The notes below the pieces were generated by a model that was not told the DNA's origin, did not search any database, and saw nothing but the letters and a program-made list of their open reading frames with translations. Position numbers and translations under genes: made by a program. A stretch of 64,000 nucleotides of DNA. Source: a phage. Location of the stretch: assembly GCA_029220445.1 (NCBI GenBank), contig GCA_029220445.1_3666.1. One strand, 5' to 3'. How positions within the stretch are numbered: position 1 is the first letter of the stretch; each line of letters starts with the position of its first letter. Shown here in pieces: positions 32,243 to 38,090 of this stretch.

Positions 32243-32593
32243 TTAGTAGATGTTTTGTTTGATCTCTATTCCAAACTTCTTGAATGAGTCAGCAGCAAGC
32301 ATAAATTTACGAGCTGCCGATGGATTAGAAGTATGCACGAAAATAATCACGTTGTCAATAAGTGGTGGCTTTCCGAATACAAGTTTCTCCTCTAGCGCAG
32401 AGAAGCAGTCGTACCCTTCAAGAACTTCACCTAGATCATTGTCAAAATACCATTCAGATACGCGTCTGTAGAGCTTTCTCTTATCATTAAGAAAATCCAT
32501 AAATTCAGAAGAATTCTTTAGCCACAGAGCGTCTGGGAGTCCATAATCTGACGGATCTCTAAAATCATCAAGCCACACAATCCACTTCTTCAT
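32243..32593 (-). CDS. hypothetical protein with CheY-like receiver (flavodoxin-fold) resemblance
   Basis: ATG at 32593 forms an ATGA overlap with the RNA ligase stop; IVWLDDF and VSEWYFDNDLGEV resemble receiver-domain blocks, with Glu at the phospho-acceptor position. Confidence 0.4.
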   Translation of the reverse strand: MKKWIVWLDDFRDPSDYGLPDALWLKNSSEFMDFLNDKRKLYRRVSEWYFDNDLGEVLEGYDCFSALEEKLVFGKPPLIDNVIIFVHTSNPSAARKFMLAADSFKKFGIEIKQNIY

Positions 32594-33525
32594 TGCATAT
32601 AGTCCTCGTTGTGGAAATAGCAGTCCAGTATCTCGCGACGCTCCTGCTCTAATAAGCAATTCCACACATCTTCTGTATAGTTGCTACGAATAAATTTTAC
32701 CATACCGTAAAACTCCTCGTCAACACGTTTAAAAATATCGTCATCCCAAATCTTCCATGCTTTACCTCTCATTACGGCCTTCCGTGCCAAATAGTATGGA
32801 GACTTGATCTTCAGCTGCAGGTCATAAGGGCAGTAAGGCTTACGGATCATATACCCTTCGCCCCTTGTTTCTGCAGCTAATTCTTTTGCATAGCTGAACG
32901 GGATTTCACGCACAGTGTGAGGACGTTTTGCACCAAGGTATTTGGCAATCCCATCTAAAGCTGCTTCTGGTAGCATTATTCCAGAATCATTATATCTGCA
33001 ACCTATCAAATATGCGCCATGGTCTTCTTGAACAATATGCGGATCTGAAGGGTGACAAATTTCAAACATGAATGTCATGTTTTCATTGCCCATAACCTTC
33101 TTGATAAGATCTAAATTACCACATTGCTCTTGGATGGTTTCCTTTGCAAGGTTACAATATGGAGAATCAAGAGACCCGGTTGTTGAGAACAATAGTTCAC
33201 CTTTATGAGATGATACCACACCGAGGAATCCGTTCTTTTTCTCTACCGCAGTAACAAGTTTACTGTCCGGTAGGTTGGTGGAGTTTTCTCCTAAGTTGAA
33301 TACTTTTGTGAAAGGCCATGCCACAACATTCCCCTCATTGCCAACAACAATACCTCGGCACTCCAGTAAACGCGGAGACAAATGCCACAGATTGTTGTAG
33401 AATACTTTTCTGGCATATTTATAGATCTTTAATCCAAGATCTGGATAATACCGACTGGTTACAAGACCTTTGTCTACTAGGTCATCTGCATTAAAATACT
33501 TCATCATACGTTCCTCATTTGTCAT
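32590..33525 (-). CDS. RNA ligase (Rnl2-like nucleotidyltransferase)
   Basis: EKKNGFLGVV (motif I KxNG), FMFEI (motif IV), GEGYMIRKPYCPYDLQLKIKS matching T4 Rnl2 EGYVLKP...IKCK. Confidence 0.75.
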   Translation of the reverse strand: MTNEERMMKYFNADDLVDKGLVTSRYYPDLGLKIYKYARKVFYNNLWHLSPRLLECRGIVVGNEGNVVAWPFTKVFNLGENSTNLPDSKLVTAVEKKNGFLGVVSSHKGELLFSTTGSLDSPYCNLAKETIQEQCGNLDLIKKVMGNENMTFMFEICHPSDPHIVQEDHGAYLIGCRYNDSGIMLPEAALDGIAKYLGAKRPHTVREIPFSYAKELAAETRGEGYMIRKPYCPYDLQLKIKSPYYLARKAVMRGKAWKIWDDDIFKRVDEEFYGMVKFIRSNYTEDVWNCLLEQERREILDCYFHNEDYMQ

Positions 33526-33568: not shown

Positions 33569-33597
33569 TTGAAATTAACAAAACAGTTAGGTATACT
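33569..33597 (+). promoter_or_regulatory. sigma70-type promoter TTGAAA-N17-TATACT
   Basis: hexamers at 33569-33574 and 33592-33597 in the divergent intergenic region; GGAGGA SD and ATG at 33626 follow. Confidence 0.5.
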
Positions 33598-33625
33598 ATC
33601 ATTAAAATTAAAACGGAGGATTGCT

Positions 33626-34036
33626 ATGTCTAAAATGCTATATATCGTGCGTGGTCTGCCAGGGTCTGGCAAATCAACACTGGCAAATGCGCTATCTTTA
33701 GAAGGTCTGTATCCACATTTTGAGAACGACATGTTCTGGTATGACGATGACGGCAATTACAACTGGGATGCAAGTAAAGTAACACTCGCAGCAAAATGGT
33801 GCAAAGATAACGTAGAAGATATGATGAGTATGGGATACGACCGTATCGTGGTAAGTAATACGTTTACAAAAGAAAAACATGTGCAGGAATATGTTGACAT
33901 GGCAATCAGTCATGGGTATAGTTATACCGTGATCGTGGTTGAAAACCGCCACGGTAATAAAAGCATTCATGATGTTCCAGACAAGGTTGTGGATCGTATG
34001 GAACGCCAGCTTAAAAACTGCATTAAACTTAAATGA
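33626..34036 (+). CDS. P-loop polynucleotide 5'-kinase-like protein
   Basis: MSKMLYIVRGLPGSGKSTLA resembles the N-terminus of the T4 Pnk kinase domain; start taken at ATG 33626 rather than the track's TTG 33569. Confidence 0.65.
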   Translation: MSKMLYIVRGLPGSGKSTLANALSLEGLYPHFENDMFWYDDDGNYNWDASKVTLAAKWCKDNVEDMMSMGYDRIVVSNTFTKEKHVQEYVDMAISHGYSYTVIVVENRHGNKSIHDVPDKVVDRMERQLKNCIKLK

Positions 34037-34043
34037 GGAATGT

Positions 34044-34598
34044 ATGAAATACTTTGTAACAAGCGACACACACTTTCTCCACCAGCGGGTCATGGAGTTT
34101 GATTCATGTCAAAAACACAGATCTCAGTATGATCACAATCTTGACAGTATGAATGCGGGAATCATCGCCGAGTGGAACTCTGTTGTGTCACCTGCAGACA
34201 CTGTGTTCCACTTGGGAGATATTGCGTGCACTAATGATAAGAATATCAACAAATTACTTCCAGATATTCTAGATATGTTGAACGGACATATTATTCTTGT
34301 TCGTGGCAACCATGACACAAGGACGACTGTCAGAATTATGAAAGAGTTCTATCACGAGGTTGTAGATTATTACGAGCTTCGCCACAACAAGAATTTGATC
34401 TGTATGAGCCATTACCAATTTGCAAAGTGGAACAGAAAGCCTCACGGATCAGTCCAACTGTTCGGTCATGCTCACGGAACCACACAACAGTTGTTTGGCA
34501 GGCAGCTTGATGTCGGTTGGGATGTGTGGGGGAGACTCTTACCATTAGAAGAGGCATACCGTACTGCAATGAGTTTTGATATTGACAGCAGGGAGTAA
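34044..34598 (+). CDS. calcineurin-like metallophosphoesterase (putative 2',3'/3'-phosphatase)
   Basis: MKYFVTSDTHFLH, HLGDIA, LVRGNHDT, GHAH metallophosphatase motifs; start at ATG 34044 with GAGGAA SD. Confidence 0.8.
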   Translation: MKYFVTSDTHFLHQRVMEFDSCQKHRSQYDHNLDSMNAGIIAEWNSVVSPADTVFHLGDIACTNDKNINKLLPDILDMLNGHIILVRGNHDTRTTVRIMKEFYHEVVDYYELRHNKNLICMSHYQFAKWNRKPHGSVQLFGHAHGTTQQLFGRQLDVGWDVWGRLLPLEEAYRTAMSFDIDSRE

Positions 34599-34645
34599 TC
34601 CCTGCTATTTTAAAGAAAATTGCCACACAAGGAGAATCAGGAGAT

Positions 34646-34996
34646 ATGAAAGATGGGGATAAGCTGCTATATCTTAAAGTCCCCCTTGAAATACTGTCTA
34701 TGTCAAAAGTTTTGAATGACACAACTGGGGAGGTTGTTGTTCTTGACTTGTATGACAAGATCGTATACTGCTACCTGCACAACTGGTATAAACTTGGAGG
34801 AAATTCACGCTTCACACCCAGCACAAGGAAAATTGCAGCAGATGTTGGGATAAAGAAAACAAAAGCAGCAGCGTGCGTTAAAACTTTAGAATGTGCAGGA
34901 TTGGTTGAAACATCCACACAGGGGAGAGGTAAAAGATGCACATTTTCCAAAGTTTTGCCACCAGAAAAAGTTATTCGAATGTCAACAACTGGTTAG
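34646..34996 (+). CDS. winged-helix DNA-binding protein
   Basis: STRKIAADVGIKKTKAAACVKTLECAGLVE helix-turn-helix segment; gene ends 76 bp before the operator array. Confidence 0.5.
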   Translation: MKDGDKLLYLKVPLEILSMSKVLNDTTGEVVVLDLYDKIVYCYLHNWYKLGGNSRFTPSTRKIAADVGIKKTKAAACVKTLECAGLVETSTQGRGKRCTFSKVLPPEKVIRMSTTG

Positions 34997-35071
34997 ACCA
35001 GTAAAAACTTAAATATCTGTACTATAAGGATTCGTATGTTTTATGTTCGCTCTGGAACAGAGGTTAGTAAC

Positions 35072-35152
35072 TGTCCGTGATACGGACACTACTGTCCGTC
35101 ACGCGGACACATCTGCCCGTAATACGGACACTAACTGTCCGTGATACGGACA
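35072..35152. repeat. four phased 17-bp palindromic sites TGTCCGT-N3-ACGGACA (operator or iteron array)
   Basis: copies at 35072-35088, 35093-35109, 35114-35130, 35136-35152; copies 1 and 4 identical, 2 and 3 each one mismatch; spacing 21, 21, 22 bp. Confidence 0.7.
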
Positions 35153-35639
35153 CATAAAGAATATAACTAAAATAACTAAATAATAAAAAATAAAAGATCT
35201 AGTACTTATGGTACTAAAGTACATATACTTAACTTATGTAGAATATACTAGATCCTAAGTACCATGTTTTAAATTTATTACTTACTGTAGGTAGTGTCGG
35301 CCCTTCATTGGCACTCGCCTACGAGGGGCGAGATGCCGGGCCTCCGTAGTGCACACATGCAGGTCTGTTAACATGTGTGGGAGCGAAGCGATAGCGCAGG
35401 CCAAAGGCCGAGCACTAATGTGGACCACCGACGAAAGCTTGCCAGCGCCGTAAGGAGTCGGTTGAGAGCCTCCCGCGCGAGTTTGGATAAAGTTTATGTG
35501 TGGAAACGGACAATGAGGCCCCTAAATCGCTCCACAGCCATATAAACTATACCAAGTAAGGCAATCGCACCAGTTTGATAGAAAAGCTCGTTACAAAGCG
35601 ATACAGTGAGTTTTTCTATAACTTGAAGAGGAGGCAGCT

Positions 35640-36218
35640 ATGAGTCCACGCAAAGATGACCGTGAAAAGATTGCAAAACGTTATCAGAATGAAGAACAGA
35701 TGGAGAAAACTTTCAAGTGGAAGCCAGGTTTCCAGCGTAATCATTCTAACGCTCGTGATCGTAAGCATCCGGATAAGTGGTTAACACCGCCAAATGATGG
35801 CATGCAGGTTGGTGATGAGAAGGAGCTGTCACCTGGAAAAGATGGCAACTACATTCGCACTAAGGAAGCAGGTCCAAAGGATGACAGCTATCTTGTAGAT
35901 AAGGTTCTTGATGGTATTGATGTAGATGTTGACACTGCACGAAACCTTTTTCTTGGTTGGTATCGTACAGGGTTTTTCGACATCAAGGCGATTCGTCGTG
36001 TTTGTGATATTAAAAAGTCTGCCTATGATGATGACTCTCTACATCGCACTCTGAGACAATACTCAGAGAGATACGGTCATCCAGTTATCACTCTTGACGA
36101 TATTAACGAAGTGATGTATCATGCAGAGGTTGTTGCAGGTAGATTCGGTGATGCATATCTCGGTATTCTTTCTGCAAAAGATGAGGTGATGTTAAATAAA
36201 ATTTACTATGAACGCTGA
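35640..36218 (+). CDS. hypothetical protein
   Basis: 192-aa ORF with GAGGAGG SD. Confidence 0.5.
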   Translation: MSPRKDDREKIAKRYQNEEQMEKTFKWKPGFQRNHSNARDRKHPDKWLTPPNDGMQVGDEKELSPGKDGNYIRTKEAGPKDDSYLVDKVLDGIDVDVDTARNLFLGWYRTGFFDIKAIRRVCDIKKSAYDDDSLHRTLRQYSERYGHPVITLDDINEVMYHAEVVAGRFGDAYLGILSAKDEVMLNKIYYER

Positions 36219-37986: not shown

Positions 37987-38083
37987 GCTAGGTAAGCCCT
38001 TTGGCAAGGGCGAGGATTTTTAATCCTGAAAATAGACGAGGTAGTCGTTGAATACATAGGTGGTTCGATTCCATCACCTAGCA
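37987..38083 (+). tRNA. tRNA-like element with aberrant anticodon arm (possible Lys-UUU variant or pseudo-tRNA)
   Basis: perfect 7-bp acceptor GCTAGGT/ACCTAGC, canonical D arm and T arm, but the anticodon-arm position is a 5-bp stem with a 5-nt loop TTTTA (or 4-bp stem with loop TTTTTAA) and about 30 extra nt precede the T arm; no encoded CCA. Confidence 0.35.
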
Positions 38084-38090
38084 CCTTTTT

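What the first reader, a model, noticed from the sequence alone, without database searches (positions are those of the whole stretch)
35072..35152. Array of four helically phased palindromic operators next to a winged-helix gene
Four copies of the 7-3-7 palindrome TGTCCGT-nnn-ACGGACA lie at 35072, 35093, 35114 and 35136 (spacing 21, 21, 22 bp, two helical turns), 76 bp after the winged-helix gene 34646-34996 and at the head of a 640-bp ORF-free region. Dyad symmetry and phasing suggest cooperative binding of a dimeric protein, as in a repressor operator set or an iteron-type replication origin. The spacing does not fit a LexA box.
Basis: partly seen in the sequence, partly recalled or inferred. 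Interest (0 to 1): 0.8.

Follow-up and report, generated by a model that had tools for sequence, protein, structure and literature searches.

The report
Candidate replication origin of rV5-like phages
Four evenly spaced palindromes beside a small DNA-binding gene in an rV5-like E. coli phage look like the binding sites of a replication-initiator protein next to the easiest-to-melt DNA in the genome, so this is probably the phage's so far unmapped replication origin; a transcriptional operator role is not excluded.

Summary
TGTCCGT-N3-ACGGACA occurs four times (35072, 35093, 35114, 35136; 0, 1, 1, 0 mismatches; spacing 21, 21, 22 bp). Chance expectation is 0.08 per window, and there is no other copy in a 140-kb sister genome.

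The array abuts the most AT-rich 60-130 bp of the whole genome (about 81% AT), which holds the window's only exact oriC-type 13-mer. It lies 1.5 kb from the global GC-skew minimum.

Array and AT block diverge 2-2.5% among relatives. Codon third positions diverge 10-12%, and the flank just upstream 26%.

In a collinear relative, gene, repeats and AT block are replaced together by a 27%-identical homologue with different dyad repeats. Two other genera pair a DUF6945 gene with their own repeats and AT block.

Best reading: an initiator-iteron-unwinding-element origin cassette (about 0.6). Main rival: an operator array (about 0.2). This would be a new member of a known kind, with an unusually minimal initiator. 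Function is untested.

The parts
34582..34611 (+). Sigma-70-type promoter (TTGACA-18-TATTTT with an upstream TG) for the winged-helix gene
   Evidence: 10 of 12 matches. It coincides with promoter P76 annotated in rV5. No terminator-like site is found between 34400 and 35800, so transcripts should read across the array.
34646..34996 (+). 116-aa winged-helix protein (rV5 ORF79), the candidate origin-binding initiator. It consists of a PLE-RepA-type N-terminal domain only.
35068..35153 (.). Array of four 21-22 bp direct repeats (candidate iterons). Each contains the dyad TGTCCG(T)-N3-(A)CGGACA, at 35072-35088, 35093-35109, 35114-35130 and 35136-35152.
   Evidence: unique in the genome. Divergence among 9 phages is 2.5%, against 26% in the flank just upstream. 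Natural isolates carry 4, 3 or 2 copies through exact unit deletions.
35153..35285 (.). 133-bp block of about 80% A+T, the candidate DNA-unwinding element
   Evidence: It is the most AT-rich 60-, 100- and 130-bp stretch both in the 64-kb window and in the 140-kb sister genome. Divergence is 1.9%. It is replaced together with the gene and repeats in L023.
35187..35199 (-). GATCTTTTATTTT, an exact match to the E. coli oriC 13-mer consensus GATCTnTTnTTTT
   Evidence: It is the only exact match in the window. Similar AGATCT-plus-T-run elements lie in the AT blocks of GAP31 and the Erwinia phage. This is pattern resemblance only.
35196..35254 (.). Perfect 9-bp inverted repeat GATCTAGTA / TACTAGATC (35196-35204 and 35246-35254). 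It carries the two GATC sites of the block and encloses small GTAC-based palindromes.
   Evidence: searches (I24; GATC positions), and direct reading.
35296..35520 (+). Adjacent GC-rich, highly conserved structured element. It is probably a separate feature, because it is retained when the cassette is swapped.
   Evidence: It is the most GC-rich 230 bp of the window. It is conserved in L023 and L024. Consensus folds of about -77 to -79 kcal/mol have one or two covarying pairs. No Rfam match.

Best explanation
The four palindromes are the iterons of a replication-origin cassette made of an initiator gene, iterons and an unwinding element. Proposed sequence of events follows.

(1) Host RNA polymerase transcribes the 116-aa gene from its own sigma-70 promoter. 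The promoter is a consensus match only.

(2) The protein is a stand-alone homologue of the N-terminal DNA-binding and dimerisation domain of RepA_N-like initiators (PLE RepA, pSK41 and pTZ2162 Rep). It binds as a dimer to each TGTCCG-N5-CGGACA dyad. The half-site centres are one helical turn apart. This step is inferred from homology and from gene-repeat co-variation.

(3) Four dimers, two turns apart and so on one face of the helix, assemble into a higher-order complex that bends the DNA. This is inferred by analogy with pSK41 Rep tetramers and the lambda O-some.

(4) The strain opens the abutting 133-bp, 80% A+T block, which is the least stable duplex in the genome (inferred).

(5) The phage's own primase-helicase and helicases load there. 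The protein has no C-terminal recruitment domain. Loading would therefore need direct contacts with the winged-helix domain, another phage protein, or an R-loop made by read-through transcription. This step is speculative.

For: Site. The array is unique in the genome and far above chance. It abuts the most AT-rich stretch of the whole genome, which holds the only exact oriC-type 13-mer in the window. The global minimum of cumulative GC skew lies 1.5 kb away.

Selection. Divergence is 2.5% in the iterons and 1.9% in the AT block, against 10-12% at codon third positions and 26% in the left flank. Compensatory changes keep the dyads.

Co-variation. In L023 and L024 the flanking genes are conserved, but the gene, the repeats and the AT block are all replaced. 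The substitute is a 27%-identical homologue followed by 5-6 dyad repeats of the type TCTGATACATATTTGCATCAGAT. GAP31 and Erwinia phage pEp_SNUABM_01 have 105-107 aa DUF6945 homologues next to two 23-bp-spaced repeats and an 81% AT block. More distant 182-217 aa homologues sit at about 500-bp divergent intergenic regions with 22-bp-spaced repeats. In L015 this region lies between primase-helicase and DNA polymerase operons.
Against: There are no functional data. The protein lacks the C-terminal effector domain present in every characterised RepA_N initiator. It does not hit PF06970. Beyond 4RO3, its structural neighbours are a mix of initiators and ordinary transcription factors. No DnaA box lies nearby. 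The GC-skew minimum coincides with a switch in transcription direction, so it is not independent evidence; the rV5 authors drew the same conclusion. The AT block is conserved base for base, more than a simple unwinding element requires, which suggests further protein or promoter sites. Isolates with only two or three repeats are viable. The array lies in a transcribed 3' region with no terminator, which would also suit a roadblock. In GAP31 the repeats lie 15 bp upstream of the gene, a position typical of autoregulation.
Confidence: 0.6

Rival explanations
1. Operator array. The winged-helix protein is a transcription factor. Cooperative binding to the four phased dyads would either block read-through from the early promoters into ORF77 and the late genes, or control a promoter inside the AT-rich block.
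Against: No sigma-70-like promoter overlaps or abuts the array. The only family cut-offs passed are the PLE-RepA N-terminal domain and HTH_36, both tied to replication initiators. This reading does not explain why the sites abut the single most AT-rich stretch of a 140-kb genome with an oriC-type 13-mer. Iteron initiators commonly autoregulate as well, so a regulatory effect would not exclude an origin.
Confidence: 0.22
2. DNA packaging or partition site. The repeats would be recognition boxes for a small terminase-like or centromere-binding protein, serving as a pac site or parS-like site.
For: Small winged-helix proteins bind repeated boxes at lambda cosB (background knowledge). The large terminase gene lies about 4.3 kb downstream on the same strand. 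The genome is circularly permuted, which implies headful packaging from a pac site. One E. coli assembly carries the phage as a 137.5-kb 'plasmid' record.
Against: There is no similarity to terminase small subunits or ParB/ParG families above threshold. The site is separated from the terminase gene by eight or more genes and a tRNA cluster. The AT-rich block and the RepA homology are left unexplained.
Confidence: 0.05
3. RNA-level element. The four 7-bp stem / 3-nt loop hairpins act in the read-through transcript, as stability, processing or attenuation signals.
For: The array is transcribed (no terminator). Each unit can form a GC-rich hairpin. The compensatory T-to-C change in unit 2 of Aya and L040 keeps a pair.
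Against: The imperfect units are wobble-compatible on opposite strands: unit 2 only on the + strand and unit 3 only on the - strand (direct reading). In SYGMH1 and FV3 the inner pair of unit 4 is broken. Helical phasing and co-replacement with a DNA-binding gene point to duplex recognition. No T-run follows any unit.
Confidence: 0.04

Closest known systems
Vibrio cholerae PLE RepA and its origin (RepA_N-like initiator; N-terminal domain structure PDB 4RO3; Barth et al. 2020, PMC7145576)
   Different: PLE RepA has a C-terminal domain; this protein is the N-terminal domain alone. The PLE iteron inverted repeats are 13 bp and converge on a poly-A tract. Here they are 6-7 bp around GAT, CAC or AAT. 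The present element sits in a 137-kb virulent myophage, not in a satellite.
Staphylococcal RepA_N plasmid replicons (pSK41, pTZ2162; PDB 4PQL, 4PT7, 5KBJ) and the pPR9 chimera with a PF13730 N-terminal domain
   Same: Four initiator boxes are bound by an N-terminal winged-helix dimer or tetramer of about 120 aa. In pPR9 the N-terminal domain and the origin are exchanged as one cassette, as between the window and L023.
   Different: In the plasmids the origin lies inside the rep gene and a C-terminal domain binds DnaG primase. Here the origin lies downstream of a gene with no such domain. PF06970 is not matched.
Phage lambda ori / O protein
   Same: There are four dyad-symmetric iterons of similar size, phased along the helix and directly followed by an AT-rich region. 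The initiator's N-terminal part is a winged helix. Initiator and origin form an exchangeable module among related phages (background knowledge).
   Different: Lambda ori lies inside gene O. O has a C-terminal domain that binds P, which recruits host DnaB. The window protein shows no Phage_rep_O match; only its Seunavirus homologues match weakly, at E 0.017-0.07.
Iteron plasmids of Enterobacteria (Rep_3 family: F, P1, pSC101, R6K, RK2)
   Same: They have phased 17-22 bp iterons next to an AT-rich region with oriC-like 13-mers or GATC motifs.
   Different: There is no Rep_3 domain and no DnaA box. The iterons here are strongly palindromic rather than asymmetric.

Membership tests
RepA_N-like initiator/iteron origins (PLE RepA, pSK41 Rep) | N-terminal winged-helix DNA-binding and dimerisation domain of the RepA_N / DnaD-N fold | tested here: met
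RepA_N-like initiator/iteron origins (PLE RepA, pSK41 Rep) | Match to Pfam RepA_N (PF06970) | tested here: not met
   PF06970 is not listed even at E up to 1. According to PMC7145576, PLE RepA also shows no BLASTP-level sequence similarity to the staphylococcal RepA proteins.
RepA_N-like initiator/iteron origins (PLE RepA, pSK41 Rep) | C-terminal, host- or replisome-specific effector domain | tested here: not met
   The ORF ends at residue 116 and the model is a single winged-helix domain. Distant homologues of 182-217 aa do carry a C-terminal extension.
RepA_N-like initiator/iteron origins (PLE RepA, pSK41 Rep) | Iterons are direct repeats with inverted sub-repeats, in or next to the rep gene | tested here: met
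   Four 21-22 bp direct repeats with 6-7 bp inverted sub-repeats lie 75 nt after the stop codon. The central poly-A tract typical of RepA_N iterons is absent.
RepA_N-like initiator/iteron origins (PLE RepA, pSK41 Rep) | Specific initiator-iteron binding, and replication that depends on both | not testable with these tools
   This needs EMSA or footprinting, marker-frequency sequencing and mutants.
Lambda-type origin (O protein plus ori) | Four dyad-symmetric iterons followed by an AT-rich region | tested here: met
Lambda-type origin (O protein plus ori) | Origin embedded in the initiator gene; Phage_rep_O domain; P-type helicase loader next door | tested here: not met
   The array is outside the ORF. 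There is no PF04492 hit. The downstream ORF77 has no family match and its AF2 model is poor.
Rep_3 iteron plasmids | Rep_3 initiator and DnaA boxes beside the iterons | tested here: not met
   No Rep_3 hit. The nearest TTATNCACA is more than 5 kb away.
Repressor-operator arrays | Operators overlap or abut the regulated promoter | tested here: inconclusive
   No sigma-70-like promoter is found in 34997-35640. Non-consensus or phage-specific promoters are not covered by the scan.
LexA (SOS) box | CTG-N10-CAG (TACTG(TA)5CAGTA) | tested here: not met
   The units read CTGTCCGTGATACGGACAC. CTG is followed after 10 nt by GGA, not CAG.

The most novel reading that the evidence does not exclude
A large virulent myophage fires its origin with a minimal initiator: a 116-aa stand-alone RepA_N-type DNA-binding domain with no recruitment domain. 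It would act only by remodelling four phased dyad iterons next to an unwinding element, and the phage's own primase-helicase or SF1B helicase would then load. The whole initiator-iteron-unwinding cassette would be exchanged between otherwise collinear phages. One possible reason is escape from origin-directed interference or from incompatibility during co-infection.
Probability: 0.3. Interest if true: 0.6.

Novelty: new member of a known kind. Interest (0 to 1): 0.45.

Why it matters
rV5-like phages (Vequintavirus) are widely isolated and are used in E. coli O157 biocontrol and phage-therapy cocktails. Their replication origin has never been mapped. The rV5 genome paper tried skew analysis and found only transcription switches (PMC3606486).

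A defined initiator-iteron-unwinding cassette gives a directly testable origin. It would also give a handle for engineering, such as conditionally replicating phage derivatives or origin-based plasmids. It offers a compact case for asking how a RepA_N-type DNA-binding domain without any effector domain can start replication; the mechanism of RepA_N initiators is described as unknown in the PLE literature (PMC7145576). The cassette swap between collinear genomes shows that origin specificity is modular in virulent phages too.

Tried and rejected
1. tblastn of the 116-aa protein and of ORF77 against 50,697 phage records found only the 119-120 Vequintavirus genomes. Synteny to other genera therefore had to be reached through the phosphoesterase gene.

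2. The word-indexed protein search gave only close relatives. The exhaustive HMMER search gave 11 hits. Two of them (P0007, P0011) are repetitive proteins and were ignored as spurious.

3. TACCT-N5-AGGTA in L015 was not above chance. The repeats in that lineage are better described as 22-bp-spaced GGGACTnnnAGGTACA. I treat them only as weak support.

4. The ORF77 structure model had pLDDT 49.6, so no fold search was made.

5. Rfam found nothing credible in 35000-35660. The rli43 match scores 26.5 bits against a gathering score of 100, which is chance.

6. DnaA boxes: none lie near the array.

7. Literature searches for DUF6945, for Vequintavirinae plus iteron, and for the 22-mer returned nothing. 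A transcriptome search was too broad to be useful.

8. The plasmid collection holds only one hit, a whole phage genome deposited as an E. coli 'plasmid'. So there is no evidence that the module serves as a plasmid replicon.

9. ORF78 as a real gene: its frame stays open, but the differences between the window and L023 are mostly non-synonymous, so I do not accept it.

Full report
**What the window is.** The region 34600-35700 is 99.4-99.7% identical to Escherichia phage rV5 and to 118 other Vequintavirus genomes. Some of these are deposited, 'UNVERIFIED', as Campylobacter phages. In rV5 the gene 34646-34996 is ORF79, annotated 'putative transcriptional regulator'. RefSeq records call it 'replication initiation protein'. 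A sigma-70 promoter (P76) is annotated in front of it, and a 56-codon 'ORF78' in the gap that follows.

**The observation.** The pattern TGTCCGT-N3-ACGGACA occurs four times, at 35072, 35093, 35114 and 35136, with 0, 1, 1 and 0 mismatches.
- Shuffles give 0.08 matches and never 4.
- The units are 21-22 bp direct repeats spanning 35068-35153, spaced 21, 21 and 22 bp. That is two helical turns, so all sites face the same side of the helix.
- Half-site centres are 10 bp apart.
- In the whole 140,158-bp genome of a 99.7%-identical relative, no other site has 1 mismatch or fewer.
One refinement: the invariant core is TGTCCG-N5-CGGACA.

**The neighbouring protein.**
- It passes the curated cut-offs of two Pfam families, DUF6945 (30.4 bits against 28) and HTH_36/PF13730 (26.4 against 25).
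- PHROG 12838 and three weaker PHROGs are labelled 'replication initiation protein'. That label alone is annotation, not evidence.
- The best solved relative by sequence is 4RO3 (E 1.3e-6). Weak matches to staphylococcal RepA N-terminal domains follow.
- A fragment of 4RO3 scores 80.7 bits on DUF6945, so that Pfam family is the 4RO3 domain.
- An AlphaFold2 model (pLDDT 76.6, pTM 0.73) finds 4RO3 first with Foldseek, then 4pql, 4pt7 and 5kbj.

**What the relatives do.**
- 4RO3 is the N-terminal domain of RepA of the Vibrio cholerae satellite PLE. Barth et al. showed that this protein drives PLE replication and binds the semi-palindromic iteron of the PLE origin. They placed it in the RepA_N group by structure (PMC7145576).
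- In pSK41 the 120-residue N-terminal domain binds four Rep boxes, oligomerises and bends DNA, and the C-terminal domain binds DnaG.
- In pPR9 a PF13730 N-terminal domain and the origin were exchanged together and still support replication (PMC5703833).
- The window protein therefore belongs to a domain family whose characterised members are origin-binding modules. It consists of that module alone.

**The site's surroundings.**
- Directly 3' of the last dyad lies a 133-bp block of about 80% A+T (35153-35285). It is the most AT-rich 60-, 100- and 130-bp stretch of the 64-kb window and of the 140-kb sister genome.
- The block holds the window's only exact match to the oriC 13-mer consensus, GATCTTTTATTTT at 35187-35199 on the minus strand. 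It also holds two GATC sites within a perfect 9-bp inverted repeat.
- No DnaA box is near.
- The global minimum of cumulative GC skew lies 1.5 kb to the left. That point is also where transcription diverges, so it is weak evidence. The rV5 authors reached the same conclusion and could not define an origin (PMC3606486).
- No terminator-like site follows the gene, so its transcript should cross the array.

**Selection.** Nine phages were compared.

| Segment | Mean pairwise divergence |
|---|---|
| 22 bp just upstream of the array | 26% |
| Codon third positions of the three flanking genes | 10-12% |
| Iteron array | 2.5% |
| AT block | 1.9% |

- Dyad symmetry is maintained. Unit 2 (T7/G11) becomes C7/G11 in Aya and L040, and unit 3 is perfect in JEP1 and L040.
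- Copy number is polymorphic through exact unit deletions. Most isolates have four units. V18, A147, A135, CarlMeissner and L035 have three, and navn has two.

**Co-variation of protein and repeats.** This is the strongest comparative result.
- A metagenomic relative, L023 (a 107-kb contig), and an IMG/VR contig, L024, keep the flanking phosphoesterase gene, ORF77 (83% identity) and the GC-rich element.
- Between those flanks, the gene, the repeats and the AT block are all different. A 143-aa protein only 27% identical to ORF79 (pairwise E 2e-6) takes the gene's place.
- Starting at its stop codon come 5-6 dyad repeats of the type TCTGATACATATTTGCATCAGAT, spaced 31-33 bp. One unit fewer is present in L024.
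- In other Vequintavirinae genera, Cronobacter phage GAP31 and Erwinia phage pEp_SNUABM_01 carry 105-107 aa DUF6945 homologues. Each abuts two 23-bp-spaced copies of GCCTAnnCTCAAATTGA (0.01 expected) and an 81% AT block with AGATCT motifs, at a divergent junction.
- More distant 182-217 aa homologues with acidic C-terminal tails sit at about 500-bp divergent intergenic regions with AT-rich DNA and 22-bp-spaced repeats. In L015 this region lies between a primase-helicase operon and a DNA polymerase operon.

**Interpretation.** I read the locus as an origin cassette: initiator gene, four iterons and an unwinding element. My confidence is about 0.6.
- Shown: the repeats, their uniqueness and phasing, the domain family of the protein, the extreme AT block, purifying selection and cassette co-replacement.
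- Inferred: dimer binding, higher-order assembly, melting and replisome loading.
- Main rival (about 0.2): an operator array acting as a roadblock or promoter control. It is supported by the transcribed position, the base-for-base conservation of the AT block and the position of the repeats in GAP31. It explains the AT extreme and the RepA homology less well, and iteron initiators often autoregulate anyway.
- Packaging or partition sites and RNA hairpins are minor rivals.

**Novelty.** Two GenBank records mark the array only as 'repeat_region'. No paper found links it to an origin. It is best filed as a new member of the iteron-origin kind. Two features are unusual: the initiator is reduced to the DNA-binding domain, and the host is a large virulent myophage.

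**Side finding.** The GC-rich element 35296-35520 is retained when the cassette is swapped, so it is a separate feature.
- Its 22-mer GCGCAGGCCAAAGGCCGAGCAC occurs exactly in 19 unrelated metagenome loci (about a dozen distinct flank types). There it forms the tip of a hairpin whose closing stems differ in sequence but stay complementary.
- No Rfam family matches.
- Its identity is unknown.

Noticed in passing
window 35296-35520 (22-mer at 35394-35415); L027-L048: This is a GC-rich, very conserved structured element, the most GC-rich 230 bp of the window. Its 22-mer GCGCAGGCCAAAGGCCGAGCAC is found exactly in 19 unrelated metagenome loci. There it caps a hairpin whose closing stems differ in sequence but remain complementary. 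No Rfam family and no paper matches it. It may be an undescribed RNA motif.
   Followed up: partly
L023 1807-2400; L024: This is an alternative cassette at the same genomic position. It has a 143-aa distant homologue followed by 5-6 dyad repeats of the type TCTGATACATATTTGCATCAGAT, spaced 31-33 bp. L024 has one unit fewer.
   Followed up: yes
window 37987-38085: ARAGORN calls a 99-nt tRNA-like gene with a four-base anticodon (atcc) inside the tRNA cluster. Murica annotates it as 'tRNA-OTHER Asp|Gly'. It could be a frameshift-suppressor-type or intron-containing tRNA.
   Followed up: no
L001 8833 onward (window about 39430 onward): The rV5 large terminase gene is annotated as a join of three pieces (ORF64ABC). 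This implies intervening sequences in this gene.
   Followed up: no
P0009, P0010 (homologues, C-termini): Distant 194-217 aa homologues end in acidic tails (...DCDEAPF, ...DEDPDAPF). These resemble the SSB C-terminal tip (background knowledge) and could be a partner-recruitment peptide that the 116-aa protein lacks.
   Followed up: no
window 35200-35229: Small GTAC-based palindromes, AGTACttatgGTACT and AAGTAcataTACTT, lie inside the AT block. It is conserved base for base (1.9% divergence). They may be sites for a second protein.
   Followed up: partly
window 35506-35512 and 34282-34288: Isolated half-sites (ACGGACA on the + strand) lie 354 bp downstream of the array, in the GC-rich element, and inside the phosphoesterase gene. 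Genome-wide, TGTCCG is under-represented: 16 per strand against about 34 expected.
   Followed up: partly
MG0656xx records; CP057073.1: Eighteen rV5-like genomes are deposited as 'Campylobacter phage' (UNVERIFIED). One 137.5-kb copy is filed as a non-mobilisable E. coli plasmid. These look like host mislabelling or a carrier-state assembly.
   Followed up: no
window 33569-34598 and 32590-33525: An RNA-repair-like gene set lies directly upstream of the cassette, close to the tRNA cluster. It comprises an AAA_33 kinase-like protein, a metallophosphoesterase and an RnlA-type RNA ligase. The same gene set travels with the DUF6945 homologue in other genera.
   Followed up: no
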